Assembly (NCBI GenBank): GCA_905250055.1
Contig: CAJNOF010000027.1
Location: forward strand, 908,618 to 972,617
Direction: 5' to 3'
DNA from: Rotaria sp.
Lineage: Eukaryota
Length of the DNA: 64,000 bases
In this document: positions 31,601-58,537 of the stretch, piece after piece
Layout: every line of letters starts with the position of its first letter
Numbering within the stretch: the stretch's first letter is position 1
Notes under the pieces: model-generated
The model's database searches: none
Told to the model about the DNA's origin: nothing
The model's input: the letters and a program-made list of their open reading frames with translations, nothing else
Program-made: the position numbers and the translations under genes

Positions 31601-33383
31601 TCAGTAAATCAAAGAAATGAAAATCTGAATTACGATTGCGACTAAAACATGATTTATTCATGTCAACATAATTCATCAAATAAAAAAACATTTTTCAGTT
31701 GTTAGGTATTATCATCTTGAATTTTTTATTAAATTCAACAGTGACAAAATTACAGATGTATCTTTTGCATGAGAAAAGCAACATACTTCGAAATCCATAG
31801 AATTTACTTCTATTGTGCTCTATTGTTGATTGAATATAAACTAGAAGGAACGTTAAAGCGAAATATCTGAGGAATACTTGCCTCTCTAACAAATGTCATA
31901 TACTCACTTACGCATTTAGAAGTCTTGCACACGATTTCAAAAGAAAATGTTGGAGTCATTTCAAACCTAATTTTGTTAATTATTTTTAGTTGAAAAATTT
32001 TGAAAACTAGGTATAATTCTAATGAAATCTGATCAGTTTAGATTATCCTTTAGGTGTGTGTCTTGCATCATTTTTTCCTGAAACCAAAATTAAATAAATC
32101 TTAATACCTTCCTCTCTTGAAATTTAGCATCATGTGTTCAGATATTTCAATAAGATATCTCTTATAGTGACATCTATACTTCTTATTTTATGTTGCATTC
32201 TAATATTTGTAAATTAATAGAAACAATTCAATATGAAGAATCTACGAATAGAATAAAATAGGTCATTAATTGTTTGTATTGATAAAAATGAAATATTATT
32301 GGTACTCATGATTTTTCAATACATGTGCGTTTGAAAGAAAGAATGATATGTTCATGCTTTGTTTGTGATATTGTGCATAAGTCGCTTATGTGTCAATTTT
32401 ATACAATGTATCGAATAAATGATTCATTAATTTCGAAGCAAAAAAAACCAAACACCCATAATTTATCGTAATTATCAACAATCAAAATGATAAGAAAAAT
32501 TAATAAATCTATAATATTCTCTAACTAATTTGGGATTCTATAGACAGAAAAAATGCTATGGTCATCAACACTATGGTACAATGTTTTTATAGTTTAGTAT
32601 TTGATTTAAAGTGAAGGTCAAAAGAGAAGGATGTGTGTAGTACTTTCAAAAATTCAACTCCTCTGTACGGAACATAAAACTTGAGTAAAATTCAGGTATG
32701 TTTAGACAGAAAAATATATTCAACTAACACTACTATTAATATGGCATGAAAGAATTTCTTACTTTTTTTTTAAACTTATGTTCAAAAAAAATAAAAATTA
32801 CTTTATTTTTGAAATGTATACGTAATACGATTGTAATTAAAAACTAGCAACCAGTTACTGTCTTGTATCAAACAAATTCGATAATAACTATGCCAATAGA
32901 TTTAGTTCACAATCTTTTCAATAACAGTGGCTCATTCTAAGCTGCACTGGACTATTTGTGTCAATATATCACTTCTTGTAATGTATATCGAATCATACAT
33001 ATTCAACGATTGTATGTATTTCATAAGATGAAACATGAAATGATTGTTTTAGGTTTTTTCTTTGAAATATACATGAAAAAACAACTGATTTTGTCTATCA
33101 TTATTTCAAGCAATTTTATTCATATATCAAAATAAGTAGAAATTTTCTCCAGTCTTAATATATATATATATAAATATCTATTGATTTCGATATGAAACAA
33201 TAGGCATCAGAGATAGGATCAGTTCGGTTCAAACTTTAAAAAAAAAACTAGGTCGACTCGATTTGAGAAAAAAAATACGAACCAATCCAATAACGAATAT
33301 GTATTTGATCTAGTTCAATTATATTATTTTTATTTTATTTTAGATTTTATATAAAAAAAACAAAAAATAAGCGTGTTCTTCTA

Positions 33384-34005
33384 ATGAAATTATTAGTAAT
33401 TATTTTGAGCTTTATTTTACTTTCTCATATATATGGATTGAATACAGATGAATCAACTGGTATTAATGTATTAGAAACATTAAAAGCAAAAAATTTATCT
33501 TGTGATCTTCATGTTTTTGTAAATTCAACTGGCAATTCTCAAGATGAATATGAAGTTTTTATAAATGATCTAACACAATACTGTTCGAATTCTGAATCAA
33601 CAAAATCATATAGAGTTTTATGTCATATGATATTAATAGAACTTGAAATTGGTTGTTTATCTCTAAATAAAACACAACCATTACCAATAAAATATATAAC
33701 TTCGTATACACCAGATAAAATATGTTCAATCAATAAAATACTATATATAAATCGTTGGATATGGGACAAATTAAAAACAAATGAAAAAAATCAAATTGGT
33801 ACAACATCGATTAAATTATGTTCTACAATAACTTCATTTAATGAGACACTTCGATTGGCAAATTTTTTTTATAAAACTGCATCACGTATTAGAGAAATTG
33901 ATACATATAATATACAGTCTTTATCACATCAAACACTTACTAATTCATCTGCTAATAAAGTCCGACTAGTTAAAAAAAAATCGTTCAAAAAAACAAATAA
34001 TACAA
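33384..34005 (+). CDS. secreted protein, exon 1 of a candidate micro-exon-type (MEG-like) gene: signal peptide MKLLVIILSFILLSHIYG, 6 Cys, several N-glyc sites; ends in phase 1 at donor GTAATT (34006)
   Basis: 209-codon ORF in a region with about 25% GC, where chance ORFs this long are very unlikely. Its last codons ...ACA A|GTAATT give a phase-1 donor compatible with all downstream short exons. Confidence 0.5.
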
Positions 34006-34055
34006 GTAATTAAGCTCTTGTTTTTTTCAAACTTTTTTTTATTATATAAAAATAG

Positions 34056-34151
34056 GTGGGAAGAAAGTCGAACTAGAAAATCAATTATTAGTTAAAAATA
34101 TAAATGAAGATTCTTTATTACAGAAACATAATTTTGAAGACAAAATAACAA
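34056..34151 (+). CDS. MEG-like gene, symmetric phase-1 short exon (96 nt)
   Basis: Acceptor aaaaatag; open in the continuing frame (S)GKKVELENQLLVKNINEDSLLQKHNFEDKIT; donor ACA A|GTAAAA. Confidence 0.35.
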
Positions 34152-34221
34152 GTAAAAAAAAATATTTTATTGTTTCTTTTCATATAAAATAAAACATTTT
34201 TTTTTTTTTGTTTTATTATAG

Positions 34222-34272
34222 AAAATAAAACACAATTAGTGTTAGACTTAAAACACGAACAATTCCAATTTG
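34222..34272 (+). CDS. MEG-like gene, symmetric phase-1 micro-exon (51 nt)
   Basis: Acceptor ttttattatag; (K)NKTQLVLDLKHEQFQF; donor GTAAAT. Confidence 0.35.
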
Positions 34273-34330
34273 GTAAATTATTTCTATTTATGTTTTTTTT
34301 AAAATAACCATTTAATGTTTTGTTTTAAAG

Positions 34331-34357
34331 ATATTAATGAAACTCAGAATATAGAAA
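34331..34357 (+). CDS. MEG-like gene, symmetric phase-1 micro-exon (27 nt)
   Basis: Acceptor gttttaaag; (D)INETQNIE; donor GTAAGT. Confidence 0.35.
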
Positions 34358-36559
34358 GTAAGTTTTAAAAAAGTTTTTTTTTTCGATAATAGTGGAAAAA
34401 AAAACCAATGTACTGTTGAGATTAGATCAAACATAAATACTTTAGTGAATTTTCTTTTGCAGAGAGAATTATTTGAATAATAATGAGAGTCATGAAAAAT
34501 AATATTGATTATTTTGGTGCTAAAGACAAATTAAATGTTGAACAAAACAAAATCGATTGAGAAAATCTTAAACAACTATTTCAGGTTCAATGATAAGGCT
34601 TGTTTTGATAGAAATTCGAGATGTGCAGCGTCAGCTTTTGTCATACACTATATGTTGAGTAAGAACAATTTTCTTACTCTGTTCTGTACTGAATCTGTTC
34701 TTACCTTATCCTACGAAATGTTTATCTCACTCCCTCTTAATCCTATTCTATGTAGTTAGAAGCCTCTAAAAGTGACAAATAGCGAAATAATATCGCAATA
34801 TAGATGTGCTGGGTAAACATTTTCCGTATCCTATAGTTTAACTAATGAAGGAACCTCATTAAATGATACATTATGTTTGAAGTCATACGTAACGCTTATA
34901 GTGTAGATAAAAAGTCTAACAGGTTTTTCTTCATCAGTTCTCTGTTCTTGGCTTATGACCAACTTACTGAATTTCCAGTCTATGGCAACGGACAAAGAGA
35001 AAAACCAAATCGAGGAATTTCAATCTGAAAATATGTCATGAAAGCAGATCTCATGATCCTTAGAATTCTCAGAAAGTTTAGTCTACAATGGATAATATAT
35101 CACTAAAAGAACAAATAGGCAAAAAAGGTCGTTTCTCATAAAACATTCGAGAAAATCCGATCTGTTTGATATTCAATATTTTGAGAAGAAAGCATTCATG
35201 TTGGCTGAAATTTTCGTGATATTATAAGAGCTATGAAGTCTCTTTTTAGACAAAATTTCAAATGAAAATTCAGTAAAAATGATCATAACATGAGAACAAG
35301 GACCTAATGTGAAGCATCCTTTTAGGGTTTTTATCTACATTACGAGTCGTATCTATGAGCAAAATATGAGTTCAAATAGAGTGTATCAATGGATGAGATT
35401 CACTCGAGAGAAAAATTTTGACATGTTTACCCTGCTCTGCAGGATAGGGTGGGATAATTCTGCACATCTCTAATCAAAATACAGGAAGAACAATTAATAT
35501 TACTGCGACAAACAGTTGAAATATCTCCACTTCGGTTCGTTCGAACGGACTGATATTTTGGTTAGTGGTACTAACTTATTTAAAGTTCTATTTTTTTTTT
35601 ATACGGATAACGTAAACAAATACTACTGTCTAGTTAGATCGTTGATCTCGCTAAAGATGTTTTGAACATTGTTAAGTAAGAAAAGACAACTGTGAAGCGT
35701 TTCGTGGAAAATTTTCAATTATGCTGTAAGCAAATAATGAAAAGTCAAAATGAACTATATTTCTGTACAGAGAGCAAGTTTTTGAAACTAGTCTATGTTA
35801 ATGCGAAAATCTATGCCGCATAAGTAAAACATATAATGGCAGCTCCGTGGGCACCAACTTTCTTGCAAAAAACTATTGTTCCATACTTACAAAGTCGAAA
35901 CTTTGTAATCCTTGACTTTTAGACTAACTAGTTCTGAAAATTTACTCTATATACCATCAGTATAATATCATTTATAAAGTTAGTTTTGATTTCTTCTTCT
36001 TCTTATTCTCTTCGATAAAAATTAAAAACTATCCATGAAATGCTACCGTTCTATTTTTCTTATTTGATAACAAATAAAATTGCTTTCATGACATCAACAA
36101 TAACACTTAACCGTAATATTTCTTTACCTTACCCATATAAAAAAAAAGCTTTGAATAAACTACTGCTACTAATCAATAAATCAGCTCATTTGATTCAACC
36201 AAAGTGAAGATATTTCATTCTTGTTTAAATCATAATCCTATTTGAGATCCATCCCTGTCCTTCAGATGATTAATGCAAGTTTAAAATATGATTGATAATC
36301 ATAATTGAGCTAATTAATAAACTAAAATTAGAAAAATCTTAGTTCTTTTAAGCAAATAAACAAACAAAGTGGAATCAATTCGATGTTCATTATATTAGAA
36401 ACATTTTGAATCATCTCATATTTTTAACGAGTCGTAGATATAGTTAAAATTTATCACTTCATGTTTTTCCGAAACCTAATCATCATCATTTATTGATGCA
36501 ATTTTCTGTAAAATTGATAACAAAAATTTGATTGATTTTTCAACATATTTTCATTATAG

Positions 36560-36622
36560 ATGATGTAGAACAAGTGGATGAAACGGAAGTACAACTAGTG
36601 CATGAAAGAAAAAGGAATGAAG
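36560..36622 (+). CDS. MEG-like gene, symmetric phase-1 short exon (63 nt)
   Basis: Acceptor tcattatag; (N)DVEQVDETEVQLVHERKRNE; donor GTAATT. Confidence 0.35.
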
Positions 36623-36674
36623 GTAATTAATTGTTTATCATTCATTAAAATTAATCATAGATAAATATATCTAG

Positions 36675-36710
36675 TGGGAATTCCATTAGGACGAAATGAA
36701 GAACTACCAG
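36675..36710 (+). CDS. MEG-like gene, symmetric phase-1 micro-exon (36 nt)
   Basis: Acceptor atatatctag; (V)GIPLGRNEELP; donor GTATAT. Confidence 0.35.
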
Positions 36711-36851
36711 GTATATAGTTTTGTATTATTTGTATTTTTTTTTATTATTCTTTTTTCTATAGCACGGGTACAAGTTAATGAACGACCGAGTACGTCATAT
36801 TTTTAGAATGAATGAAACGACAAAAAAAAATATATAATTTTATTTAAATAG

Positions 36852-36920
36852 AACCAAAAGCTCTGGATATTGAAGTTGTCTTTCAATCAAATGATGGTGA
36901 AAAACGAAATTGGATTGAAG
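36852..36920 (+). CDS. MEG-like gene, symmetric phase-1 short exon (69 nt)
   Basis: Acceptor tttaaatag; (E)PKALDIEVVFQSNDGEKRNWIE; donor GTATCA. Confidence 0.35.
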
Positions 36921-37010
36921 GTATCACTTTAATTTAACACGAATTGGGATACGGGTACTAAAACAAAATTTTGAAAATTTAATTTTGTCTAACACTGACA
37001 AACACTTATA

Positions 37011-37133
37011 GGACGAGATGGCAAACATAAAGAAGAAAATGAACCACATTTTCACTCACTTCAGTATAATCGAACAAAATCTCAAGAAAATCGATTTGTC
37101 GTTCCTTCAGCAGCAAAGAGAAAACCTAAACTT
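37011..37133 (+). CDS. MEG-like gene, symmetric phase-1 exon (123 nt); terminal exon not resolved (possibly acceptor at about 37452 giving ...I-stop)
   Basis: Acceptor acacttatag; (G)RDGKHKEENEPHFHSLQYNRTKSQENRFVVPSAAKRKPKL; donor GTAAGA. Confidence 0.35.
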
Positions 37134-39571
37134 AGTAAGATATTTTATTTTATTTTATTTCTTTTAATTCAATAGAAAAATAGATATAATTGTATCAAGA
37201 ATTGTTCACTGAAAAATAAATTGAAAACGTGTTACTAGAGTTCATCGGATAGATCTCAGATCTAACGGACGCTACTCTGAAAGTTAGAATCAATTATAAA
37301 TTAATTTCTATAAGATCACCTTGAATATTCCTGAAGAGATGTGTAGGATGTGTTCATCGTCGAACATAAATAATTAGACAGTGTTTCAAAAGCTCGAACA
37401 AAAAACCGTGAATACCTCTTCAGCAATTTAAGGAACTTAAATATCGTTTTTTTACAGTTTGATGACATATTCATTGAAGTTTTCAGATAAAATGTCTGTG
37501 TTTGCAGACGTCAGAATTAAAATAGTTTTACTGATGATCAAATTTGATTTAGGTATCATTGTAAAACGAAAGCTGCAAATTAAATGCGGCAAAAATGCAT
37601 CAACAGAACCACCTTTCAGCGATTTTGTCAAACTAGTACTATCGAAAACCGATCGCATTCTGAAAGATCTATGGCAATTACTGAATAAAAAGTCAATGAA
37701 GTTAAGGATACTTATGAAAATAAGCCAGAATGATGCATTCAGTCTATTACTCAAACTTGCTCATTAACCACAAACAATAACATACCGGTTTATGGTAAAA
37801 CATCTGTTACTAAAGCCATACGAGATAGAATTTGTTCAATAGTTCTACGAACAAGAGTTACATAAACCGAACACTTGATTCTAGATCATTTTCACAAACG
37901 TCATGAACTTCATCGATTTTCGATAGTACTATTTTTATAAAATCACTTGAATGTGTTGCTAATTGAACATTTAGTATGGGTACTTTTTTTTCTAAATGTA
38001 ATTTGCAGCTATCATTTTACAATGCTGATTTATTTGAATTGGCCTATGAATAAAACTATTTTAATCGGACTTCTCTAGATGTCTAGAGATTTTAATTGAA
38101 ATATATTGAATAAAACTTTAATGAATATGTGATTAAACTTTAGAAAAAATATTTAAATCTTTTGAATTACTGAGAAGCTATTAATAGTTTGTTTTTCGTT
38201 CGGAGTTTCTTGGAATAACCTATGATCGAAAAAGTATCTCATACCTTCGAAGCAATTACTGGACTCAAATTAAAAACTCTATTAGGAATATGAAGAATAC
38301 GGTTTGGCATTGGTTCCCGAAAATTTTGAAATAGACAGCCTCTATTCGTCACCAAAGCCAATTTTATTCGAATGAACAGTTTCATTGAATGTCATTGTTT
38401 CGAAATTTTTTCAATCAGCATTATAATGTCGATGTTCTCATGGGTCGTTTATTCTCATATCTTCATTCGAATAGCAATTATTTCCTCATTACTTAATATT
38501 CAGTTATATTATTTTGTTGAATCATACCTTTCGCCTTTATTTTCTGATAAAATACCTGAAAAACTATTTTAAGAGCTGAAAATTTATAACACAATAGCTT
38601 TAAGCAAAATAAATCTTCATCCGAGTAACATACTAAATCAAAAATATTTTATTTAGAAGAGTGCGTTATTCAAATATTCGGTTATAAAAGGACAATTTTG
38701 AATATTAAATGAGCATCAGTCTATTGAGTCCAATCCTGAAGAAAATACTAGTTCGATAAATCGTTGATAATCTATCAAATTTTTCTTTTTACTTATTAAA
38801 TTATTTACTCTAATATTTCTCTTTTAAGAACCAAGATTAAGTTTATATCGTGATGATGACGATGATTGGTTAGACAAGGTTATCACTGGTTTTCTTGTTT
38901 TTATCTTATTTATGATTATCATTTATTTGATACTAAACCATAAGAATAAAGTAAATAAATTATTTTTCAAAAAAAACTAAAAGAAAAAGGAAAACTCCCA
39001 TTTTCTTCGTTAATATAGATATTAGGTTTGATAATTGAAGGATGCAGACGACAACGTGTAATACATGGACGTCGTTTTGGTGTAAGTTCTAGTACAACAC
39101 GTCTTACTCGTTCAACGCATTCGATTTAAAAAACGCTATTAAATAAAAACAAACATTTATAATCTTTTCTTTTTTTTTCGAGAAATTCTTATTTGAATTT
39201 TCTTAACTTTTTTTTTGTGTAAAGTTAATCTTTATTTATATTGAAATATTCCATCGTGACAATTAGAGAACAATATAATGCAAGTCTTATTCTCAATAAA
39301 TTTATATCAGTTTGATGAATCATTCTGTATTGTTTTCTTTTAAATGTTGAGCTTTTGCAAACAATCTGTATCATTATAGTATATTTTTTCTTTTCTTAGT
39401 AATTCGTACTAATCATATATCATTAAAAAACATTATCTTTTTTGTCATTAGTGAAAATTAATAAAGAAAGGATGAAAAAGAAGATTTAATAGATGCTACA
39501 TAATTTAATTAATTATTATTTTGATGTATAAGAATAATTTTTTGATGTATTTTTGAATCTTACTTCAATAT

Positions 39572-39660
39572 CCGAACTTAGCTCAGCTGGCAGAGCGGTA
39601 GGCTGTAATGGTGTAATCATAGTAACCTATAGGTCCCCAGTTCAAATCTGGGAGTTCGGA
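39572..39660 (+). tRNA. tRNA-Tyr (anticodon GUA) with about 16-nt intron
   Basis: Acceptor stem CCGAACT/AGTTCGG. D-arm GCTC-AGCTGGCA-GAGC. Anticodon stem GTAGG/CCTAT with loop CT-GTA-A. Intron tggtgtaatcatagta after position 37. T-arm CCCAG-TTCAAAT-CTGGG. Discriminator A. Confidence 0.9.
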
Positions 39661-41570
39661 TTCGATATTTTTTTCTTTCTTTTTTTTCTTTCCTGTGTGT
39701 TTATATGGTAATAGGGTTACAATGATGAAAATATTTATTTTTGAAATAACTGAGCAATGAAAAGAAGTAGGAATTTGAGATTTTTTTTTCATCATAGATT
39801 TTTAAAAAATTCACAAAATTTCAAGATTTTCTTTTTATGTAAAATTTTACCTTAATTGAAAAATAAAATATCCAAATTATGTTCGAGATTTAGCTAATAG
39901 ACAAACATTATTTAGTGTATATTTGATTAATTGAACCAGCTGTAATTATTGAGTCAATGTGAAAAATATGTCATAGAGGAAAAACCATTTTTTTCTAATT
40001 TAGTCTTATGTTTATGTAAACAGTTTAACGCATCTGATTTAATCCACTTTAGGAATAAAATTTTAGATTGATAATTTTGCACTGTGAGTATCTTACAAAT
40101 TTATTCATCTTATAATTCTTTGATTAAATCTATTTGAATGTGTCTATTCATTCATTGTTTTCAGAAATACCAGCTGTATGAGTATAATACGTTGAAAGTG
40201 GCGCCAAAAATAGCGTTATCTTGGATGAATTATACCTCAGAGCTGGCAGGCTTGACTCTATGTATGTTATTTCTATATTTGCTAGTCAAAATGAATAGTT
40301 GATTGCTGTATTAAGCGTATTAATCTTATGTGAGGGTGTCATTAAGCTGCAAATGAAACGTCAGTCCTCTTAAAAATAGTAAAGCAGTAATTATATACAC
40401 ATGTATAATGCACTACCGGAAATGAACATTATGTTTTTGTTACCCACGTGTATGAAAGCTTTCATCAATGATGTAATTATTACGAGATACATGGACCATC
40501 AAGACTAAATTATGGTTCATGGACTAATGAATTTTATTATCATAATTGAGCTGTTATACTTTACAAATGTATAGAAAAAAAAGGATTCTATATAAATGCA
40601 AAAAAAGGAAAGTAAGAGCTGTATTTTGTATAGCAACAGTGTTAAAAACCAAATGATTTATGAAAAACCACACCATATTTATGATTTTTATTATAGACCC
40701 AAAATGTAATATTTAATTTCTAAATTAAAAACAAAAATCTTGTGACGGGCATCTGAAACATATCGAAATGAGAATTCTCAAAAGAATCTCTGTTTATTCG
40801 CTATAGTAGAACAATTCAACGATAAAGTGATTATTCTTCTAAACTTATCATAAAACCCTTACTGACATAGCTTGATAATCATGTTCTTCAGTGTATAGCT
40901 ACCACATAATTATTGTATTCACGCATTGGACAGCTTATTTTATGGCTAGTCACTTCAGATTATTCATCAGATAGCCTCATGGAAGATCATTACAAATTCT
41001 TTTGTTGTCTTTGTTCATACTCATTCGATTGATTTTTTTGGTAGTGTGCAATGTACTCGAATAGCATCGAAAGATAGTTATCATCTTACAGATCCAATTC
41101 TTATCCTAATTTTTGTAATTCACCGTTAAAATAAATGCCAAGATTTGTAGTAAAATTGTCAATAAAAATCGACCTATGAAGTTGCTGTGCTACTAATAAC
41201 AAATCAACCTATTCAAAACTTGTCTACTATAGAGTTAATATCAGACTCTCGGAAATAGTTTGGTAACGTTATCAATTCTACGTAGTATTGATCATCACAA
41301 AATAGAGCTTTCTGAAAAGCATTCTATTGCTTGGAAATATTTTACTTTTAGAAACTTTTCATCACTAAAATTTGCCTAATGGTGTTTTTATTTCTTTTTT
41401 TATTCGAATATGAATTTAATTTAACTTTTGCAGCTGAATAAAATACACAAAAATTCAATTCGAACGAACATTGAAAACATTTCATCATTCACTGTACATA
41501 TCAAAACTTAGTATACTTAATAGTAGATGTTTTTCATTATAGTTATTTCGTATCAAATGAAGATTAAGTA

Positions 41571-42363
41571 TTATGTGAGACCAATAAGTGATTTCATCAA
41601 TGGATACAATTCCATTATTTTGCCTTGTTTTTTCAGGTTTTCTCGATAATCTTCCGCATTTCTTTGAACTTTAAATAAATCATTAATGAGACGTATCATT
41701 TTAAACACTGCTGTATTAAATGAAAAACAATCAATTAAATAACGGGAAAGTAAATCAACATATTTAAAATGTGCATTTAACACACGTTGAGGATCGGACA
41801 AATTCCAAATTTATTCATTGTTTATTGAGACACCTTTTAGAAATATTAAAACAAGTATAAGTATTTGAATAATCAATCTATCATTATCAATAGTATTAAC
41901 AATTGAACGAAGAATAGATAGATAGTCTTGTGTTGCTTTATAACCATAAAATAGAATATTTAAACTTTTATGATATTGAGCAAAGATTTCATCCTTTGAT
42001 GATATTGATGTTGATCCAGTATCATCATACAATCAATCACTTTTTAGATCGAATACTAAAGCATCTCGTAATATAAGTAATGGAAGAAAATTATATTTAA
42101 TAAGTGTTAAACGATCTTGATCATATAATGATTCAAATTCAGGAATTAATCAAAGAAAATTAATAAGTTTTATTCGAAGAAATTTTTCTATTTCAATTAA
42201 ATCAATATATGAGAATGGTTTATTTAATGATTCAGCAAATGATATAACAGATGAAGCTGATGAATTTAATTGCAATGCATAAAGATAAGCATTTCGAATA
42301 TATGATAAAGAAGAATGATTGATATTATTTAAAAGAAATGATGAATTTAATGAAATATTATTA
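41571..42363 (-). pseudogene. protein-coding exon of unknown function with three in-frame stop codons (TGA, TGA, TAA) in an otherwise continuous 264-codon frame; preceded by a 49-nt GT..AG intron and an upstream exon (about 42413-42470)
   Basis: Minus-strand frame reads TNNISLNSSF...KLINFL*LIPEFESLYDQDRLTL...DLKSD*LYDDTGSTSISSKDEIFAQYHKSLN...GVSINNE*IWNLSDPQRVLNAHFKYVDLL...KIMELYPLMKSLIGLT* with no frameshift. ttttttctag acceptor directly upstream; intron gtaagaag...ttttctag. Confidence 0.45.
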
Positions 42364-44517
42364 GTCTAGAAAAAATAAGATGTCATGTTAGCTATTATTT
42401 TTTTTACTTCTTACCGGTCCACATTTTTTCGCATGTTTTGTGATTTCCGTTGAATGAAGTTGACGATTTCGTTGATTATGCCATTTTTTTGGATAATTCT
42501 CTTTTTTGTTTTATCAAATGATCTTTACACATGCCTAAATTTTAATTAGTATTATTAAATATAGCAAAAAAAAAACGCTAATACTTGAAGAAAAATAGTT
42601 TTTCCTGAAATGATTCAATTTTATTGGTTAAATAAAAAAAGATGAATGCATACTATCGACGAAAGAATTCTATATAATAAGTTATACAAGTAATGACTTA
42701 ATTGGAAACTTATTTATGTTTGGATTTTCCTTTACATGAACGACATGAAACCTGCATAAAATTATAACTTGATATAGGAGCTTCACAAATGACACATGTT
42801 AAAGCAACTTGACGTGGTTTTTGTAGTTGAATATTTTCGAAGAATCAGTCGATCTGTTGTATTCCTTTAACGAAAATAATACTTTAATACTTGTTAAAAA
42901 TCAGTACTTCTTGAGATAAAAATCGTTTATTTTCTTTTTTTCTCTTTATTTGATTTCAACGGTGAAAAATGTAATTATTTCGACTTAAAATATCTTTATC
43001 GTTATCAGTCAGTAATAAAAAGGTTTTGTTGTTTTAGTTTATAAACAAAGATTATATGATGAAATTTCACAGCTACTCCTATGTATGTATTGATGTAAAC
43101 AATCATAATGAAAACCTTTCATCCATAAACATGTTTATATAATGTTCTTTATTTGATGTGAGTCATACGTATGCTTTTAGACAAAATAAAAGGACTCACA
43201 AGAAAAAAGAATGTAAAAAATCGAAATGCATTTAACACTACTAAAACGATAATATTATTGAGTATATATCTTGATTCTACTAAATTGACATGAGTCAATC
43301 TTTTTTTTTAAACATATGGTATTAATTATTTGAAGAAATTTCCCTACGGTTCTTATTGGACTTTGTAAAATGTCAAAGATTTAAATGAATATGAAAAAAT
43401 GTACGAAGTCGAAAGTGCCACTGTCTCACTTCATTCAAAATCACACAATTGTACTATTTTAATTCTTTTCATTATTAACAGTTACTTTATAATTAGAAAA
43501 CTGATAAATTTGAATTGTATATATTAAAAAATCGTTAAACAATAAAATATTTTCTAAATATTGTTTATAATCAAATCCATCATTTATTTCTAGTTGTTGA
43601 AATATAATTTTTGTGATTTTCGATAGAATAATTGTATGAATGATAATTACAATAACCGCTGTCTTTGAATATGAAATGAGGAAATTAATAAACAATACAA
43701 AAGGCTATGGTAAAGAAGCGATTTTATCTAAACGATGTGCTCGAAACATACCATTGATAGAGTATAAATAGGAAACTTTAAAGTAAACAAAGTGTTCACA
43801 AACGTGTCTTGTTGTACCTACATAGTGATTTTATCATAGAATACTAAATATTTGTTAATAAATCTTGTGAATGAAAGAAAATTTGTTGCTTCGTATTCAT
43901 CAAACAAGAAGTTTCAATTTCATCTAGTGAAAATTAAAGTTTTAGTTTTGACCACGACATGTAAATATATATACATATATATAGAGTAATAATATTTCCT
44001 GATTTATATACAGATCAATGAGAAAGACTAATGATATGTTAATCAAAAAGATTCATAAATATATATTTTTTTGTACTAGTTATTGTCAATAAAATGCATT
44101 CAAAGAGTAGATGAAAAATGTTTATCAAAAGACTAATAGTCTATTTGTAACAATAAACAACAGTTTTCAACATCATTGAATATTGAATACAAAAAATTAG
44201 GTTTTTTTTTTGTATGATGTTCTTTTATGAAGACATTGCTTGAAATTTGCTGGTAGCATATAGTTAACTTTGATTTTTATGATTTTTGACAACTTAAACA
44301 ACAAATAAAGAATACTGAGCCTTTTCTTCAATGATAATAATTGGAGAATAGAAACCTTTTACTTGTAAGAAGCATGTTTCAAAACTGCGTAAAGCGAAGC
44401 ACTTTTTATTTTGTAAGAGACTGGATAGATTTATCTCTCTCTCTCTTATCAGTATGTATATTAATAGCAACACAGTTGTCTTTATACTAATCAGTTTTAT
44501 TACTAGCAAATTTTAGC

Positions 44518-46396
44518 ATGCAAATATTTCTTGTGCTTGCATTCGTTATGGTGAATTGTTTACTGGAAACTTTACAAGCCAATCGAACAGTTATAGTTCG
44601 TACTAAGTATCGTGATGTACTTGGTTATGAGACAAATATGGCTCGTATTTTTTATGGAATTTCATATGCATAACCACCTATTGGTGACTTGAGATATGCT
44701 GTTATTTTAAAATATTTATGATAATTGTTTCATATGGGATTCATAGATGGAAGCGATCAGTGCCAATTTCGAAATGGACTTCGAAAGTGTTGAATGCAAC
44801 AACACGGGTTTCAGCTTGTCATCAACCACCATGTGTTGGAATTTCTTTATTTCTTTGTCCGACAATAGTAGATAAATACACGATCTATTTTATTATTACT
44901 TTTAATATTATCCATTATTTTTTCCCGTCGATTTAGTACTCTGAAGATTATCTTTACTTGAACATATTTATACCACTATTGAGTGATTCATCATCAACAT
45001 CTCGTTTGTCAGTTATGATTTTTATTGCTGGTGGTAATTTCCAATATCTTGATGCGTCGGTACCAGTCTACGAATCTGAACGACTTGTTAATACAACGAA
45101 TGTCATTATTGCTCTTATTCAATATCGTCTTGATAAATACAAAGTAACATAGTAGATTCACATTTTTTTATCAAATATTTGAAAGGTGTACTTGGTTTTC
45201 TTGCAACGGGAACGAAACCAAATGATATAAAAAGCAATTATGATCTTCTTAATCAACGATTGGCTATTGCCTGGATTAAAGCGAATATTGATGCTTTCGG
45301 TGGAGATTCTAAACAGGTTCTATATATAGATCGAGAATGAATTTAAAAAATTTTCATATATATTCTTTTTTACAGATAACACTATTTGGTCAAAGTGCTG
45401 GAGCACAACCAGTGGCATTGCATCATATAACAAGTGAGATGCAATCCTTCTTTCAGGCGAATATTGTTCAAAGTGCTCCAATGGCAATCCCATTTCGGTA
45501 ATAATAATGACCATTGAATATGAAATGGTAGTGTTTTCTTTGAATTCCGAACTTATGAACAATATATTACACCTGCTACTCTTCTTGCTGAAGCACTTCA
45601 TTGTGTTATTGGAGATATAGGCTGTTTGCGCAAAGCATCTTATCAGGATATAGCTGCTGCTCAAATAAAAGTAAATACCATGTTGACTTCGTTGGAATTT
45701 TTACTATTTTTTGAGCCATGGGTACCTGTAATTGACAATACTATTGTAAAAGATCAGCTTATCGAAATAGTGAAGAATACATCTTTTCCACTTAAACCAC
45801 TTGTAATTGGGACATTGAATGAAGAAGCAATTTTTTACGTCTATGAAGCATGGGTAAAACCGATCACATTGTCGTTTTATCTTGAAATTATACTTTTCAC
45901 GTTTCGTGCAAATGCATTTAAAATGATGGAACGTTATCCACCTATTGAAGTTGACGATCTACGGCCACTCGTATGTCAAATGGCTATACAATGGGTATTA
46001 GCATGTCCGACACGTATTTATGCTCGTCAAGCTGCTTCATATTCGTATGTTTTTGGTTTTCCACTTGATTTTGATGGATGGGAAAATGAAACGTTTTGTG
46101 ATCATCATGTCTGTCATGCTGATGAACTACCTTATACATTTGAGTCCGTATGGGTTAATTTTGCAGATGCTGGCAAACGTGTTGCAATGAGTATGGCTAC
46201 TTATTGAACTAATTTTACCAAAACTTATGATACAAACCAACCCGTATCACAGTCAATAGTATGACCAAAAATGAATACTGATGAACTTTATTTGTACTTT
46301 CAAGATCCACTAGATGTTCGAAACGCTTATTTGAAGGATGAATGTGACTTTTGGGATGAAATTGGTTACAAAACAATCCCTTCAATCTATGTCTAA
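44518..46396 (+). pseudogene. carboxylesterase type B (cholinesterase-like alpha/beta hydrolase) pseudogene, 6 exons. In-frame TAA at 44671-44673 (conserved YA-E-PP position). Splice donor of intron 3 mutated GT to AT at 45132-45133. In-frame TGA at 46205-46207 and 46262-46264, both at conserved Trp positions
   Basis: Exons approx 44518-44700, 44754-44867, 44937-45131, 45186-45316, 45376-45497, 45522-46396. Family motifs: FYGISYA*PPIGDLRYA, PISKWTSKVLNATT..CHQ, SEDYLYLNIFIP, IAGGNF, YRL|GVLGFLATG..LLNQRLAIAWIKANIDAFGGDSKQ, ITLFGQSAGA (nucleophile elbow), FFEPWVPVIDN, SYSYVFGF..FDGWENE..HADELPYTF, Y*TNFTKT...*PKMNTDELYL...CDFWDE. Confidence 0.75.
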
Positions 46397-46740
46397 TTTA
46401 TGGATTCCGAATGACTGAGAAATTAAATATTGTCTATTCCTTTAATACATGTCATACGAACGAAAACTCTTCAAAGACACACAATTGTTATTTTTGCAAC
46501 TCTATAGATGTATCTCCTTGCCTCTTGTGATCATATTCTTGCTGTATCCGGTTATTGTTCAACATTTTTTGATTATTCCCAAATTTGTGTGATGATTCAA
46601 ATATAGAATATTTACTAAATGAATCGGAATTAAGTGAATGTTTCGGTGATGATGTATGAGCAAGACGTAGTGCTTCTTAGCTGAATTTGTTGACTTTCTT
46701 GAACTTTTGAATAGTTCTTTGTGACTTTAACCTCTGTGTA

Positions 46741-47690
46741 AAAAGTCTTCGGACAAAATATATGTTCAATTTTCTTTCATTTTTAAGTTGCAGGAGACAA
46801 TAAAAAGTAGTCAGCTAGAATGAAAATTTTGTGCTCTTTCTAAATATATAATCAGAATTTTTCAATGTCTTAAAGTTGTTTCTGAAAGAGCAAATTTTTG
46901 ATAGAAATCAAAAACAATGTTTGTACAAAACACTGGTTTCAAAGGCATTGGTAACTATGTTCACTCATTTTTCAGAGACCTAATTGTAATCGAAAAGGAT
47001 CAAAATCAGTTAGGTAGAAGCAAGATTTGATGCTCTTTCTAAATATATCGGTAGAACTTGGCCATGACTTACGGCTACTTGGCTATAAAGGAATACGTAA
47101 CTAAATAATTCGCCGAGACAAATAAGCTCTTTTCTCTGACGTGCAATTTCTCATAAGGATATTTTTGACTAGTTTTTTTCTGTCTAGTTTTGTAGGCAAT
47201 GTTATATGCTACAAAGCTGTGGCTTCAAATATTTTATAACTCAAAACAATCAAAATTTACAAATGATCTTCTACATACCACTCTATAGATGAGATAAAAT
47301 TTTTGAAACAATCGGTTTTTGACAGTTTTGATATCTTGAAATAGAAAGACACTGATCCTTTTCTACAATGTGTAGAAAGCAAATGAAGTTGTGCATTTTT
47401 TAGAGCAAGTTTTGCTCTACAAACCAGTGTAATAGTAGACTTTCTTATGATTAGAATTGAAGCACTTTTAATCGATATAGAAAAATGTAGTACAAGAAAA
47501 ATTCTGTACAAAGATTGCTTTTGGTTCCCATCAAAGATTTGCTCTTTCAGAAACAACTTTAAGTCAATGAAAAATTTTGAATATATATTTAGAAAGAGCA
47601 CAAAACTTTCATTCTAGCTGACTACTTTTTATTGTCTCCTGCAACTTAAAAGTAAAAGAAAATTGAATATATATTTTGTCCGAAGACTTT
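46741..47690. repeat. foldback / long-TIR non-autonomous element: about 220-bp near-identical inverted arms (46741-46960 and 47460-47690) around an about 500-bp core
   Basis: 46741 aaaagtcttcggacaaaatatatgttcaattttctttcatttttaagttgcaggagacaataaaaagtagtcagctagaatg... is the reverse complement of ...cattctagctgactactttttattgtctcctgcaacttaaaagtaaaagaaaattgaatatatattttgtccgaagactttt ending at 47690; a partial third copy at about 47020. Confidence 0.6.
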
Positions 47691-48523
47691 TTACATGGAG
47701 GTCAGTAGTCTTTTTTTCGAACATGGTTAATGTCTGCCTAGATATATTAATTTTTATTTCATTCATATACAGCTACTTGGCATGTCTATGATAATGATAT
47801 GAAAAATGTGACAAGATAAGAAGTTATTACAGAATAGGATGAAAATCATACTCTCGTTTTTCTCATACAAAGATAAAAGACGAACTAACGTGTCCTATTT
47901 ATAGTTGCGTATGTAAGCTTGCCAACTCACTCGAGAAACCTCTCTGACGTCTGATTTCTCGCACGAATCAACTTAGTCAAACAATCGTACTGGTTAGACA
48001 ACTGTATCTTAATCGAAATCCGTACGATTTTATCAAAGACCAATGAGTGGCCGTTTTCTCTTTGTTTAAGAGAATAATATTTGTTTAAAAACTCAATGAA
48101 TTCAATGACTTTAATTCTGTAAGGTACAACAAGTCGATAAAAAAATGTAAGAACCATTATTTGGAATAAAGATAGGTTTTATTATGCATTGAGTCGAGAT
48201 CATGATATTAAGAAGATAGACATATCGTCCATATATGCTTGCTCTTCTACAACCTGTTTTATACTTCTATTCTCTTTAAACTCTTTTTGATCTGTCTGCA
48301 TTTAAAATTGATTACATTGCAGAACTCTTGCACAAGATAAGAGTGTTGTTTTCTTTTGCTGTGTTATTGCAAGTAAGCTGCTGTATTTTTCATCTTCGTA
48401 AATAATGTGACAAAAAAACGTCTTATCATTGCACTCTACTGATATGGCATATAAAAATGCAATCACCTTTTCAATTATATTTTCATTTGTGTTTTGACAA
48501 CAGAGAAGTAACATACAACAAAA

Positions 48524-48666
48524 ATGAAAATAATTTTTGTCTTCTGTCTCCTTTTCGTGAACGTTTATTGTGTACACGCCTTTGAAGAACAATTGAACGA
48601 TTCATGGACATTATTTAAACGTATTTTCAAGAAAGAATATGCATCAAAAGAGGAAGAAATTGTTCG
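48524..48666 (+). CDS. cathepsin L-like cysteine protease (papain family C1A), exon 1 (signal peptide + start of propeptide)
   Basis: MKIIFVFCLLFVNVYCVHAFEEQLNDSWTLFKRIFKKEYASKEEEIV(R); donor GTGAGC. Confidence 0.9.
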
Positions 48667-48732
48667 GTGAGCAAAGTACATTATTTATAATTGTTACAAA
48701 TAGCACTTCTTTCTTTGCTATGATATCAATAG

Positions 48733-48838
48733 ACGAACAATATGGGAAAAAAATCTTGCTAAGATTCGTAAACACAATCTCGAATCCGATATGGGTCTTC
48801 ATAGTTACACAATGGAAATGAATCGTTTCGGTGATTTG
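48733..48838 (+). CDS. cathepsin L-like protease, exon 2 (propeptide, ERFNIN-type motif)
   Basis: RTIWEKNLAKIRKHNLESDMGLHSYTMEMNRFGDL; acceptor atcaatag; donor GTACGT. Confidence 0.9.
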
Positions 48839-48888
48839 GTACGTCTTTTAGGTTTATTGATTTTGTTAGTAGACACTTTATTGTATAG

Positions 48889-49009
48889 ACTCATGAAGAA
48901 TTCAAGAAACAAATGAATGGATTTAAGATGAGTACCAATGTTGATCAAAGCAAATACGATCGTCATATGTTTTTGGCACCATCAAATGTTGTTATTCCAG
49001 ATCAAGTCG
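48889..49009 (+). CDS. cathepsin L-like protease, exon 3
   Basis: THEEFKKQMNGFKMSTNVDQSKYDRHMFLAPSNVVIPDQV; donor GTAAGT. Confidence 0.9.
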
Positions 49010-49076
49010 GTAAGTATTTTCATTGAATAACTTTTCCGATGAATAAAAGATATTCAACATCTGTGGGTCTACATAG

Positions 49077-49390
49077 ATTGGCGTAAAGAAGGATATGTTA
49101 CTCCTGTTAAAGATCAAGGCCAATGTGGATCATGTTGGGCTTTTTCAGCTACTGGTTCACTCGAAGGTCAGACCTTTGCTAAAACCAAAACACTTCCTTC
49201 ACTCTCTGAACAACAATTGGTCGATTGTTCGAGCAAATTTGGTAATGAAGGCTGTGATGGTGGATTGATGAATAATGCCTTCGAATATATCAAACAAAAC
49301 AACGGTATAGATTCAGAAAAGAGTTACCCATATCAAGCCTATGATGGAAAATGTCGTTTCAAACCAGAAGATGTTGCTGCCACAGATATT
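49077..49390 (+). CDS. cathepsin L-like protease, exon 4 (mature domain, catalytic Cys)
   Basis: [32 protein letters not shown]...[13 protein letters not shown]...ATDI; donor GTGAGT. Confidence 0.9.
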
Positions 49391-49444
49391 GTGAGTGCTA
49401 TCTATCAAAAGAAAATAACAAGTCATTATATACGATTTCCATAG

Positions 49445-49777
49445 GGTTTTGTTTATGTCAAGGAAAAAAATGAAACTGACCTCACGATTGCAATTGCTAC
49501 AGTCGGTCCTATTTCAGTCGCTATTGATGCTTCGCAAGACTCATTCCAATTTTACTCGGGTGGCATCTATAATGAACCAATGTGCTCGTCGACTGACCTT
49601 GACCATGGTGTGTTGGCTGTTGGATATGGTAGTGAGGGAAAGAAGCATCCAACTGATTATTATATTGTAAAAAACTCATGGGGTGAAGGATGGGGTGATG
49701 GTGGTTATATTTTAATGCTTAGAAATTCGAATAATCAATGCGGTATAGCCACTATGGCTAGTTATCCACTTGTTTAA
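49445..49777 (+). CDS. cathepsin L-like protease, exon 5 (catalytic His/Asn, stop TAA)
   Basis: [30 protein letters not shown]...[12 protein letters not shown]...[39 protein letters not shown]. Confidence 0.9.
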
Positions 49778-50859: not shown

Positions 50860-51960
50860 TGTTTAAAGCAAGTTTATCAAGTTTTTATTACATCAAATGT
50901 TCAAAATAATCACTTTGGTTGTTTACACATAACTGCATTCGTTGAATCCATTTATTAAAAATTTTTTTATACTCTTCTTTTTTCAACGACTTCATAAATT
51001 TGATTACAGATTCATACAATGATTCGGAATCATCTTGATCGTCAATATTTTGTTTGATCAAATGAAACAACCAAAAGTAACATGGAGCCAGGTATGAAGA
51101 ATTAGGTGGATGTGGCATTATTGTTACGCCTTCCGATTCAAGATAATTAACTAAGTCTTCATGAATATGTGGTTTTCCATTATCATGATGAAGTTTAATT
51201 GATCGAATATCTAAGGAAGGTAGTTGGTTCTTAATTTCATCAATAACAGCTTGCAAACAATTATTGATGTAATATTGATGATCGATTGTTTCTCCACGTT
51301 TAACAGAATGAATTAAAACTGGACCAATTGACTTAAACAAAATAGACAGGAGAGTTCTTGGAACAAAACGAATACGTCGAACCACCGCCAGTAGAGGATC
51401 TTCACTTCCAACCCAATCAGCATTCGATGACTTTCGACTGATTTGCTTGTGATAAAATCATGATTCATCACTTGTCACTACATGACATCATCTCCAAACA
51501 CCTTGTTCATATTTTAACAAGTTTTCTTGGTATATTCGTACTCGTTCAGCCTTTTGAGAGTTCCTCAGATGTTTGAGAACATAACGTACAGTAATTTTTT
51601 TCAACTGTGGATGATCAGAAATAATTCGTTGAACGGTGCCATAACGTAGACCATTTTGTGCTTCGAGTTCGTCAATTGTACCATAAGACTCATCATTAGT
51701 AAGATTGTGAACTTATTCAATATTTTCAGATGTGGTCTCCATTATAGGTCAGCCAGCTCTTTCTTCATCTTCAACTTCTTATCGATCTTCACGAAACCAT
51801 TTGACCATCTTTGAACAGTTCTAAGAGGGGGACCTTCATCATCAAAAGACAGTATATAGTTCATTATGAAAAACTATGGATTGAATATGAAGTGCACTAC
51901 GTATTTTAATATAGAAACGAAAATGTTCTTCATCCATTTGAAGAGAAGCGAACAGTTTTG
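50860..51960 (-). mobile_element. degenerate mariner-like element (Tc1/mariner, cecropia/mauritiana-like transposase) with internal stops/frameshifts; termini not resolved
   Basis: C-terminal ORF 50888-51385: HDNGKPHIHEDLVNYLESEGVTIMPHPPNSSYLAPCYFWLFHLIKQNI...DYFEH (D,D34D region, PHPPYSPDLAP-like). N-terminal remnant MDEEHFRFYIKIRSALH... at about 51914 followed by stops. Confidence 0.8.
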
Positions 51961-56600: not shown

Positions 56601-58537
56601 GTTGTCTCTGAAAACAAACTTGAAAAGATAAATCCTATGACAATATAAACTGTTTTTGTCTTACTGAATCGCTTTCTTTTTTTATTCTTTTAAGATACCA
56701 AATATTGATATGAATCAGACATTATGGCTAAACTACTAAAAATTTTTTGGAGTTGGAGTCGAGTTTTGGAATCAAAAAGTGTGACACCGCTGAGAACTAT
56801 TTGTCAACAACCGATTTTCACTTTTCTGGTGTATGTGAGAGCAATGAGTCCAGTTCAATCAGAAAGTCTGAGTTCGGTTTTTAGCAACGCTTTTGAAAAC
56901 GTATTTGCTACTGAAAGATTTAAATAAGAAATGAACGAGATGCAATATAACACACGTCGAACGAAATGTATCTTTGCATAGAAGATAATAAAAATGTAGC
57001 ATAATAAAAAAAAAATTCACTTACATTTCATACTTTGTGTGTAATCATTATGGATATTTATGTTCTTTTTTTCTGTCTTCTACAACTTATCTGTTTCTTA
57101 TTGGTATTGAAAAAGTGTTTTACTAAGTGTGTTTGCCTTCTTCTATTTGCTTGTATATGTATGTAAAAAAGATGATAAAGTTGTATGTGACTAGGTTTGA
57201 GATACTGCCTTCCAGGCGCTAGTATTCAATGTACATTAATCAACTGATTGACGGCGTAGACAAATGAGAGTGGTGAGAAATTATCTTTGTATATGATATG
57301 ATGAAGATATTTCCTTTAAGTTTTCATATAGGTTTCAATCATAGTGTTTAGCTCAGTCACTAGCCGCTAAGATATTGATGTTCTAGAACCTGTTACGAAT
57401 GTTTTTTTCATCCCTCCTAGGACAACTACATGCATGTTTCTGGTAAGATCTTAGATCAAAATTTGAAATTAAGACGATGCACGAGTAACAATCTAATATA
57501 TATAAGATAAGATTCGATATGATCTACATTGAAACAACATTAGCTGCTGTCAAATCGAGACGTCATTTGTCAAACAATTGCATTGAAAAAATTCTTGCTT
57601 TGCTTTTTTTTGTACAAGAAAAAACCATTTTGTATGAGCTTGTGTCAGAGAGGTCTATAACGTGTAGCAATGACAAGCTTTTTAAATAGCTTACGTGACT
57701 TACATAATGTTTTAGTAGTATCATCATGTTGGCGGTGCTGTGGTGGCCTATGCTTGTGACGACATTCCAATTCTGGATGGATTAGTGCAGGATTTCAGCA
57801 ATTACAAATGTAGAATTCTGAGATTAAATGAAAGTCGTCAGTAAGTAAGAGCAGCGAGTATAGCGATATCAGAGATACTCGAAACTTCTTTTTGAATATG
57901 GAACCATCACGCGACAGTAAAAGATTTCTAGCTGCGATATACATCTTTAGTACGTGCCTAATAATGATTGATTCAGAAGGTACCTTTTACTACAATAAAG
58001 CATAATGTAAATTTTATCCTATGTGATCACGATTATAGCATCGTTTTTATTGCTTTTTATCAAGGACAAAATAGTTTCGAATCAACATTTGATGATAGTT
58101 AAATGTGTATTATAAAAAAATTTCATAGGTTACACTTGTCGGATGAAATCCTGATTCTGATAGAATCGGATCCAGAATTCAATTCTGAACAAAATGATAC
58201 ATGTGTTCAAGTAAATCAGCGCCATGCTTTAGGCGTATATAAATAAATCATCAACAAAAACTTGGATCTGTCTGAAAAAAGCTTTATGTTCATTGCCCAT
58301 CATATAGAGTTACAATTGATAAACGTGAACTGTCGATCCAGTTCGTTAGAAGATTTCTTGTCCATCGGTCTAGATGCTTCTTAAGTTTATACATCTATTC
58401 TTTCAAGACAATGATCAAAAAAGATTTTTTTATCGATGAAAAATTTTTAATAATGATGTCCAAGACTGTTTCTGCAAGGAGACATACATCAGACTATAGT
58501 ATTAAGAGAAAACTAACCATAGTATAGCTAATATATA

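What the first reader, a model, noticed from the sequence alone, without database searches (positions are those of the whole stretch)
44518..46396. Recently decayed carboxylesterase gene: stops only at conserved Trp/Glu positions plus a GT to AT splice-donor lesion
Exon structure and the family motifs (PP.G.LRF, SEDCLYLN, GQSAG, FGGD, FW) are intact with no frameshift. Exon 1 has TAA where the family has E/Q (GISYA*PPIG). The last exon has TGA exactly where the family has W (Y*TNF, *PKM). The intron-3 donor reads YRL G|ATAAAT instead of G|GTAAAT. All four lesions are transitions of the expected AT-biased type (TGG to TGA, GT to AT), indicating a young pseudogene. The pattern superficially mimics a UGA=Trp/UAA=Glu code and could mislead automated annotation.
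Basis: partly seen in the sequence, partly recalled or inferred. Interest (0 to 1): 0.55.

Follow-up and report, generated by a model that had tools for sequence, protein, structure and literature searches.

The report
Dead carboxylesterase gene in a rotifer
This is an ordinary dead copy of a carboxylesterase gene in the bdelloid rotifer Rotaria sp. 'Silwood-1': it carries six disabling point mutations, it is intact in three sister species, and its only practical importance is that it has fooled the public gene annotation.

Summary
The feature is real and is a pseudogene. Window 44518-46396 (+) holds a six-exon type-B carboxylesterase gene (Pfam PF00135, E 2.7e-79). The window is 100% identical to Rotaria sp. 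'Silwood-1' assembly GCA_905250075.1.

Compared with the syntenic orthologues of R. sp. Silwood-2, R. sordida and R. socialis, which are all intact, the gene has six disabling substitutions, not four:
- three in-frame stops: TAA (from CAG) and two TGA (from TGG);
- two splice donors changed from GT to AT, in introns 1 and 3;
- one splice acceptor changed from AG to CG, in intron 5.

A conserved cysteine is also lost (SEDC to SEDY). There is no exonic indel.

All six lesions are present in three Silwood-1 assemblies, one of them about 1% divergent, so they are not sequencing errors.

On the Silwood-1 branch dN/dS is 0.53, against 0.21-0.23 in the orthologues, while dS is the same. Constraint was therefore lost about 4-5% neutral divergence ago. 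That is after the species split and well before the haplotype or isolate split.

Five other genes in the window use the standard genetic code. An intact paralogue lies elsewhere in the same genome. The public annotation models this locus as truncated proteins and as chimeric esterase-cathepsin proteins.

This is an ordinary finding of low interest.

The parts
44518..44693 (+). Exon 1 (signal peptide to ...PPIGDLR). It contains the in-frame TAA at 44671-44673, where the orthologues have CAG (Gln).
44694..44746 (+). Intron 1 (53 nt, phase 2). The donor is mutated from GT to AT at 44694-44695.
   Evidence: Silwood-2, R. sordida and R. socialis all have GT; three Silwood-1 assemblies have AT. Splicing at this position reproduces the invariant LRW.
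44747..44867 (+). Exon 2.
44868..44936 (+). Intron 2 (69 nt, GT-AG, intact).
44937..45132 (+). Exon 3. The codon at 44949-44951 is TAT (Tyr) where all homologues have Cys (SEDC to SEDY), so a conserved cysteine is lost.
45133..45185 (+). Intron 3 (53 nt, phase 1). The donor is mutated from GT to AT at 45133-45134.
45186..45316 (+). Exon 4 (...FGGDSKQ). GNYGILDQ has become SNYDLLNQ through three G-to-A changes.
45317..45375 (+). Intron 4 (59 nt, GT-AG, intact).
45376..45497 (+). Exon 5, containing the nucleophile motif GQSAG, which is intact.
45498..45549 (+). Intron 5 (52 nt, phase 2). The acceptor is mutated from AG to CG at 45548-45549. A cryptic AG at 45530-45531 exists only in the window haplotype.
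   Evidence: At position 45531 the window has G, L019 has A and the orthologues have T.
45550..46396 (+). Exon 6, with in-frame TGA at 46205-46207 and 46262-46264 (both TGG/Trp in the orthologues) and the original terminator TAA at 46394-46396.
46730..47702 (.). A roughly 970-bp element bounded by 201-nt inverted arms (92% complementary), 330 bp downstream of the pseudogene. It is absent from the Silwood-2 locus and is probably a non-autonomous DNA transposon. It is context only and is not shown to be causal.
48524..49777 (+). The neighbouring intact cathepsin L gene (5 exons, 338 aa). Public gene models wrongly fuse the pseudogene to it.

Best explanation
The locus is a unitary, non-processed pseudogene of a secreted type-B carboxylesterase, sitting at its ancestral syntenic position (UCH - esterase - cathepsin L - EEP) in Rotaria sp. 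'Silwood-1'. After this lineage split from R. sp. Silwood-2 and R. sordida, purifying selection on the copy stopped. Redundancy with the many intact paralogues in the genome may be the reason; that is an inference. Ordinary AT-biased point mutation then accumulated: three nonsense codons, two GT-to-AT donors, one AG-to-CG acceptor, loss of a conserved cysteine, and many Pro-to-Ser and Gly-to-Asp/Ser replacements at otherwise invariant positions. No full-length esterase can be made from this locus. What is shown: the lesions, their absence from the orthologues, their presence in three assemblies, and the relaxed dN/dS. What is inferred: lack of function, the cause of the relaxation, and the order of events.
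For: - Source. The window is 100% identical to GCA_905250075.1 over 21,254 bp. Exact protein matches are named Rotaria sp. Silwood1.
- Orthology. The locus is collinear with the Silwood-2, R. sordida and R. socialis loci.
- Conservation. The gene span is 88.6% identical to Silwood-2, and all indels lie in introns.
- Lesions. All six are AT/CG/stop in the three Silwood-1 assemblies (the window, L017 and L019) and GT/AG/sense in the three other species.
- Constraint. Branch dN/dS is 0.53 for Silwood-1, against 0.21 and 0.23 for the orthologues, while dS is equal (0.109 against 0.105).
- Private changes. There are 54 nonsynonymous, 20 synonymous and 3 stop changes, against a neutral expectation of 56.7/15.8/4.5 (p = 0.26). 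Against the orthologues' 33 nonsynonymous and 36 synonymous changes, Fisher p = 0.0013.
- Continued decay. The second Silwood-1 haplotype or isolate has its own replacements at invariant residues.
- Genetic code. Five other window genes have 27 TGG Trp codons and no in-frame stops.
- Paralogue. An intact full-length paralogue, P0005, lies at a non-syntenic locus in the same assembly.
Against: - There are no exonic indels. From the noncoding indel-to-substitution ratio (25 indel events per 554 substitutions), about 2-3.5 were expected, giving P(0) of about 0.03-0.13. This is mildly surprising, but noncoding DNA here is richer in homopolymer and AT runs.
- The catalytic Ser, Glu and His codons are still present.
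- No expression or proteomic data could be examined.
Confidence: 0.95

Rival explanations
1. The organism reads UGA as Trp and UAA as Gln/Glu, so the gene is intact under a variant genetic code.
For: The three stops fall exactly on Trp, Trp and Gln positions.
Against: - Five other genes in the same window encode all 27 Trp as TGG, have no in-frame stops, and terminate with TAA or TGA.
- The orthologues in three congeners have TGG/CAG at these sites.
- Three splice sites are also broken, and dN/dS is raised.
Confidence: 0.005
2. The stops and splice-site changes are sequencing or assembly errors in an otherwise functional gene.
For: None. This is only a generic possibility for any single assembly.
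Against: All six lesions are identical in the 10x linked-read assembly and in two Illumina single-individual assemblies (GCA_905331515.1 and GCA_905331525.1). The last is a genetically distinct copy, 98.86% identical over 24.8 kb. Library types are taken from PMC7943196.
Confidence: 0.01
3. The gene is still used, and its G-to-A lesions are reversed at the RNA level by A-to-I editing (UGA to UGI read as Trp; AU donor to IU) or by stop-codon readthrough.
For: Five of the six lesions created an A where the orthologues have a G. No frameshift has accumulated. The catalytic triad codons persist.
Against: - The UAA at a Gln site and the CG acceptor cannot be repaired by A-to-I editing.
- A conserved Cys and many invariant Pro and Gly residues are replaced.
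- dN/dS is 2.5 times that of the orthologues, and the second haplotype keeps accumulating replacements at invariant residues.
- An excess of G-to-A among disabling hits is expected anyway, because TGG to TGA and GT to AT are the commonest one-step knockouts under a GC-to-AT bias.
Confidence: 0.02
4. The locus was hit by a burst of targeted cytosine deamination (RIP-like or APOBEC-like hypermutation) rather than by slow neutral decay.
For: GC-to-AT transitions make up 41 of the 96 private substitutions, against 11-12 in the orthologues. C-to-T changes are enriched where the C is followed by another C (15 of 93, odds ratio 2.8, p = 0.005 uncorrected).
Against: - Synonymous divergence on this branch equals that of the functional orthologue (dS 0.109 against 0.105), so the mutation rate was not raised.
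- CpA and CpG contexts are not enriched.
- The CC enrichment is what release of constraint on Pro (CCN), Trp and Gly (GG) codons would produce.
- AT-to-GC changes and transversions also occurred (55 of 96).
Confidence: 0.03

Closest known systems
Type-B carboxylesterase/cholinesterase family (Pfam PF00135), specifically the bdelloid rotifer clade represented by Rotaria sp. Silwood2 P0001 (530 aa), R. sordida P0002 and R. socialis P0003
   Same: Full-length match to the family profile. Same six-exon structure and exon lengths, and the same syntenic neighbours. 82%, 79% and 76% amino-acid identity. GQSAG nucleophile elbow and catalytic Glu and His codons are present.
   Different: Three premature stops, three broken splice sites, a lost conserved Cys, and relaxed constraint. 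It is a relic of a family member, not a working one.
Unitary (non-processed, non-duplicated) pseudogenes, such as lineage-specific gene losses by point mutation in animals (general knowledge)
   Same: It sits at the ancestral locus with introns retained, the orthologues are functional in sister species, the disabling substitutions are shared within the species, and dN/dS rises toward 1.
   Different: Nothing essential. The only slightly unusual trait is that all lesions are substitutions, with no indel yet.
Paralogue P0005 in the same genome (Rotaria sp. Silwood1, loci L014/L015)
   Same: Same family and same intron-1 position, 73% amino-acid identity, and an intact ORF with a signal peptide.
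   Different: Different chromosomal context (HET-domain and RabGAP neighbours), and it diverged before the Rotaria species compared here. It is not the allele of the pseudogene.

Membership tests
Carboxylesterase type B (PF00135) | Full-length sequence match to the family profile above the curated threshold | tested here: met
   267.9 bits against a cut-off of 27, profile positions 4-515 of 515. PDB cholinesterases match at E 1e-42.
Carboxylesterase type B (PF00135) | Catalytic Ser (G-x-S-x-G), Glu and His present | tested here: met
   GQSAG, the Glu of TL(N/T)EEA and the His of VCHA(D/G)EL align with invariant columns of the rotifer clade. They are present as codons only, because the ORF is broken.
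Carboxylesterase type B (PF00135) | Conserved cysteines of the N-terminal disulfide loop (SEDC motif) | tested here: not met
   TGT to TAT at 44949-44951. Cys is present in all eight homologues aligned.
Carboxylesterase type B (PF00135) | Uninterrupted, spliceable coding sequence (a functional member) | tested here: not met
   Three in-frame stops, two AT donors and one CG acceptor.
Unitary pseudogene | Orthologous (syntenic) position with intact orthologues in related species | tested here: met
   Collinear with the Silwood-2, R. sordida and R. socialis loci, which carry intact genes annotated as 530, 515 and 528 aa.
Unitary pseudogene | Disabling lesions that are real and shared within the species | tested here: met
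   The same six lesions occur in three assemblies, including one copy that is 1.1% divergent. Only one to three individuals or clones were sampled.
Unitary pseudogene | Relaxed purifying selection on the lineage | tested here: met
   dN/dS is 0.53 against 0.21 and 0.23. Fisher p = 0.0013 against the orthologues, and the counts do not differ from the neutral expectation.
Unitary pseudogene | No functional transcript or protein | not testable with these tools
   No RNA-seq or proteomic data are accessible here.
Processed (retro-)pseudogene | Lacks the parental introns; poly-A tail; new location | tested here: not met
   All five introns are retained at the orthologous positions and the locus is syntenic.
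Variant nuclear genetic code (UGA = Trp, UAA = Gln/Glu) | In-frame TGA or TAA at conserved sense positions across many genes of the genome | tested here: not met
   There are no in-frame stops in five other window genes (2082 codons), and all 27 Trp codons are TGG.

The most novel reading that the evidence does not exclude
The most novel reading not excluded is that the locus is still expressed and its G-to-A lesions (two UGA codons and two AU splice donors) are corrected post-transcriptionally by A-to-I editing. That would be a 'restorative editing' gene like the stop-loss-edited genes of some fungi. It would also explain why no frameshift has accumulated.
Probability: 0.02. Interest if true: 0.75.

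Novelty: new member of a known kind. Interest (0 to 1): 0.12.

Why it matters
The finding matters little biologically. It is one more lineage-specific gene loss in a large, redundant esterase family of a bdelloid rotifer.

Its practical value is as an annotation correction. The public Rotaria sp. Silwood-1 records model this locus as truncated esterases (245 and 175 aa) and as spurious esterase-cathepsin L fusion proteins (487, 557 and 602 aa). Those models then appear alongside unrelated neighbouring genes in one 90% protein cluster.

It is also a clean, datable example of neutral decay that could be used to calibrate the mutation spectrum and the indel-to-substitution ratio in an asexual animal.

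Tried and rejected
1. My first gene model used a 34-nt intron 5 (acceptor AG at 45530-45531), which adds six residues (VFFEFR). I rejected it because all orthologues lack the insert, the ancestral acceptor maps to 45548-45549, and the cryptic AG is absent from the second Silwood-1 haplotype.

2. I considered a canonical GT donor for intron 1 at 'gct|gttatt'. It is out of phase with the only AG. The orthologue alignment shows that the true donor is the mutated AT at 44694.

3. The parsimony count of private substitutions suggested full neutrality (nonsynonymous to synonymous ratio 2.85). I treat this as an overestimate, because saturated synonymous sites are excluded. The NG86 branch estimate gives dN/dS of 0.53, which implies loss of constraint over roughly 40% of the branch.

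The homologue search used too strict an E-value cut-off and did not list the Silwood-1 protein. I reached the locus through an exact cluster look-up instead.

5. I first took window 29895-42599 to be a 12.7-kb insertion specific to this genome. It is shared with R. sordida and R. socialis, so it is simply missing from the Silwood-2 loci I fetched.

6. RIP-like and CpG-deamination signatures are not supported.

7. By eye, the 165-aa ORF at 50888-51385 (-) looked like the C-terminus of a mariner transposase. Pfam gave no significant match.

Full report
**What is there.** Window 44518-46396 (+) is an AT-rich eukaryotic gene with short introns.
- Six exons assemble into a 1593-nt reading frame: 44518-44693, 44747-44867, 44937-45132, 45186-45316, 45376-45497 and 45550-46396.
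- The conceptual product matches the Pfam carboxylesterase family PF00135 end to end (267.9 bits, E 2.7e-79, profile positions 4-515 of 515). It also matches solved cholinesterases at about E 1e-42.
- The frame is interrupted by TAA at 44671-44673 and by TGA at 46205-46207 and 46262-46264.

**Source and orthologues.**
- The closest proteins are all from bdelloid rotifers: Rotaria sp. Silwood2 P0001 (82%), R. sordida P0002 (79%) and R. socialis P0003 (76%).
- Exact look-ups of other window ORFs return proteins named Rotaria sp. Silwood1.
- The window is 100% identical over 21,254 bp to GCA_905250075.1 contig CAJNOP010000050.1. The Rotaria sp. 'Silwood-1' assemblies, a 10x linked-read assembly of a clonal line and Illumina assemblies of single individuals, are described by Nowell et al. 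2021 (PMC7943196).
- The Silwood-2, R. sordida and R. socialis genes lie in collinear loci with the order UCH hydrolase, esterase, cathepsin L, EEP nuclease. They are therefore orthologues, not paralogues.

**The lesions.**
- The gene span is 88.6% identical at the DNA level to Silwood-2. All nine gap columns lie in introns.
- At six positions all three orthologues are intact and Silwood-1 is broken:
  - CAG to TAA;
  - intron-1 donor GT to AT (44694);
  - intron-3 donor GT to AT (45133);
  - intron-5 acceptor AG to CG (45548-45549);
  - TGG to TGA, twice.
It missed the intron-1 donor and the intron-5 acceptor.
It reads SEDYLYLN, because the conserved Cys codon TGT has become TAT at 44949-44951.
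- Many other replacements hit residues that are invariant across eight rotifer homologues: eight Pro to Ser, Gly to Asp or Ser, and Asp to Asn.

**The lesions are not errors, and they are shared within the species.**
- The same six lesions are present in GCA_905331515.1 (L017), where the gene is identical to the window.
- They are also present in GCA_905331525.1 (L019). That locus is a genetically distinct copy, 98.86% identical over 24.8 kb, with 11 differences inside the gene.
- L019 has its own replacements at invariant residues: Ile to Asn, Pro to Leu and Tyr to His. Decay has therefore continued independently since the copies split.

**Selection and age.**
- A three-taxon Nei-Gojobori decomposition gives dN 0.058, dS 0.109 and dN/dS 0.53 for the Silwood-1 branch. 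Silwood-2 gives 0.21 (dS 0.105) and R. sordida gives 0.23.
- The equal dS values show that the mutation rate was not raised.
- The raised dN/dS fits a switch from about 0.22 to 1 over roughly 40% of the branch. That corresponds to about 4-5% neutral divergence since constraint was lost.
- Private substitutions comprise 54 nonsynonymous, 20 synonymous and 3 nonsense changes. This does not differ from a neutral expectation built from the observed spectrum (56.7/15.8/4.5, p = 0.26). It does differ from the orthologues (Fisher p = 0.0013 and 3e-6).
- The parsimony count overstates neutrality, because saturated synonymous sites drop out.
- The loss is therefore younger than the species split but several-fold older than the 0.6-1.1% divergence between Silwood-1 copies. 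'Young' is only relative.

**Mutation pattern.**
- GC-to-AT transitions occur 3.9 times more often per site than AT-to-GC transitions. This matches the roughly 30% GC content of the window.
- Under such a bias, TGG to TGA and GT to AT are the most likely single-step knockouts. The predominance of G-to-A among the lesions therefore needs no special mechanism.
- CpA and CpG contexts are not enriched. An enrichment of C-to-T before C (p = 0.005 uncorrected) is what release of constraint on Pro, Trp and Gly codons would produce.
- There are no exonic indels. About 2-3.5 were expected from the noncoding indel-to-substitution ratio of 25 per 554, so P(0) is 0.03-0.13. This is mildly surprising only.

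**Alternative genetic code rejected.** Five other genes in the window were checked: cathepsin L, the EEP nuclease, a GT25-like ORF, the 916-aa UCH ORF and a 268-aa membrane ORF. They contain 27 TGG Trp codons and no in-frame stops, and they end in TAA or TGA.

**Paralogue and annotation.**
- The same assembly has an intact paralogue, P0005, with 73% identity. It sits at a non-syntenic locus, and its in-frame signal peptide lies just upstream of the annotated start. Further paralogues such as P0007 and P0014 also exist.
- Public gene models of the pseudogene locus are artefacts. P0176 (245 aa) and P0185 (175 aa) are truncated. P0183, P0184 and P0180 (487, 557 and 602 aa) splice from just before the first TGA into the neighbouring cathepsin L gene.

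**Verdict.** This is an ordinary unitary pseudogene of a carboxylesterase. It has no unusual mechanism, and its main use is as an annotation correction.

Noticed in passing
window 45015-49777; proteins P0176, P0185, P0183, P0184, P0180: The public Silwood-1 annotations model the pseudogene as truncated esterases, or as chimeric esterase-cathepsin L proteins that splice around the TGA stops. In the 90% cluster listed these models sit alongside the unrelated neighbouring genes; the chimeras may be what links them.
   Followed up: partly
window 46730-47702: A roughly 970-bp element with 201-nt inverted terminal arms (92% complementary) lies 330 bp downstream of the pseudogene. It is absent from the orthologous Silwood-2 locus and is probably a MITE-like DNA transposon insertion.
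   Followed up: partly
window 58531-58947 and 59095-59508: A second large inverted repeat has arms of about 417 nt at 84.7% identity. It is seen in all Silwood-1 loci compared.
   Followed up: no
L011 (GCA_905331535.1) against window 34988-41345 and 59473-64000: In this Silwood-1 assembly, sequence matching window about 35.0-41.3 kb is joined directly to about 59.5 kb. This implies either an 18-kb deletion haplotype lacking the esterase pseudogene, cathepsin L and their neighbours, or a misassembly.
   Followed up: no
window 44518-46396 against L019: All 11 differences between the two Silwood-1 copies of the gene lie in the 3' 725 bp (45531-46255), and none in the first 1013 bp. This could be a gene-conversion or homogenisation tract.
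   Followed up: no
window 44518-46396: Private C-to-T and G-to-A changes are enriched where the C is followed by another C (15 of 93, against 26 of 410 elsewhere; p = 0.005 uncorrected). This is probably release of constraint on Pro, Trp and Gly codons rather than a mutational signature.
   Followed up: partly
window 4653-5525 (+): An intronless 290-aa ORF gives a borderline match to Glyco_transf_25, an 'LPS biosynthesis' glycosyltransferase family (24.0 bits, exactly at the cut-off). It is a possible horizontally acquired gene. It is annotated as 290 aa in one Silwood-1 assembly and 255 aa in others.
   Followed up: no
window 50888-51385 (-): A 165-aa ORF looks by eye like a degenerate mariner/Tc1 transposase C-terminus (HDNGKPH...PHPPNSSYLAP). 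Pfam gave no significant hit.
   Followed up: partly
window 29895-42599: A 12.7-kb stretch carries a Ser/Thr/Asn-rich membrane-protein gene (P0173-like; first exon at 33384-34013). It is present in R. sordida and R. socialis but missing from the Silwood-2 loci fetched, which suggests a structural difference in Silwood-2.
   Followed up: no
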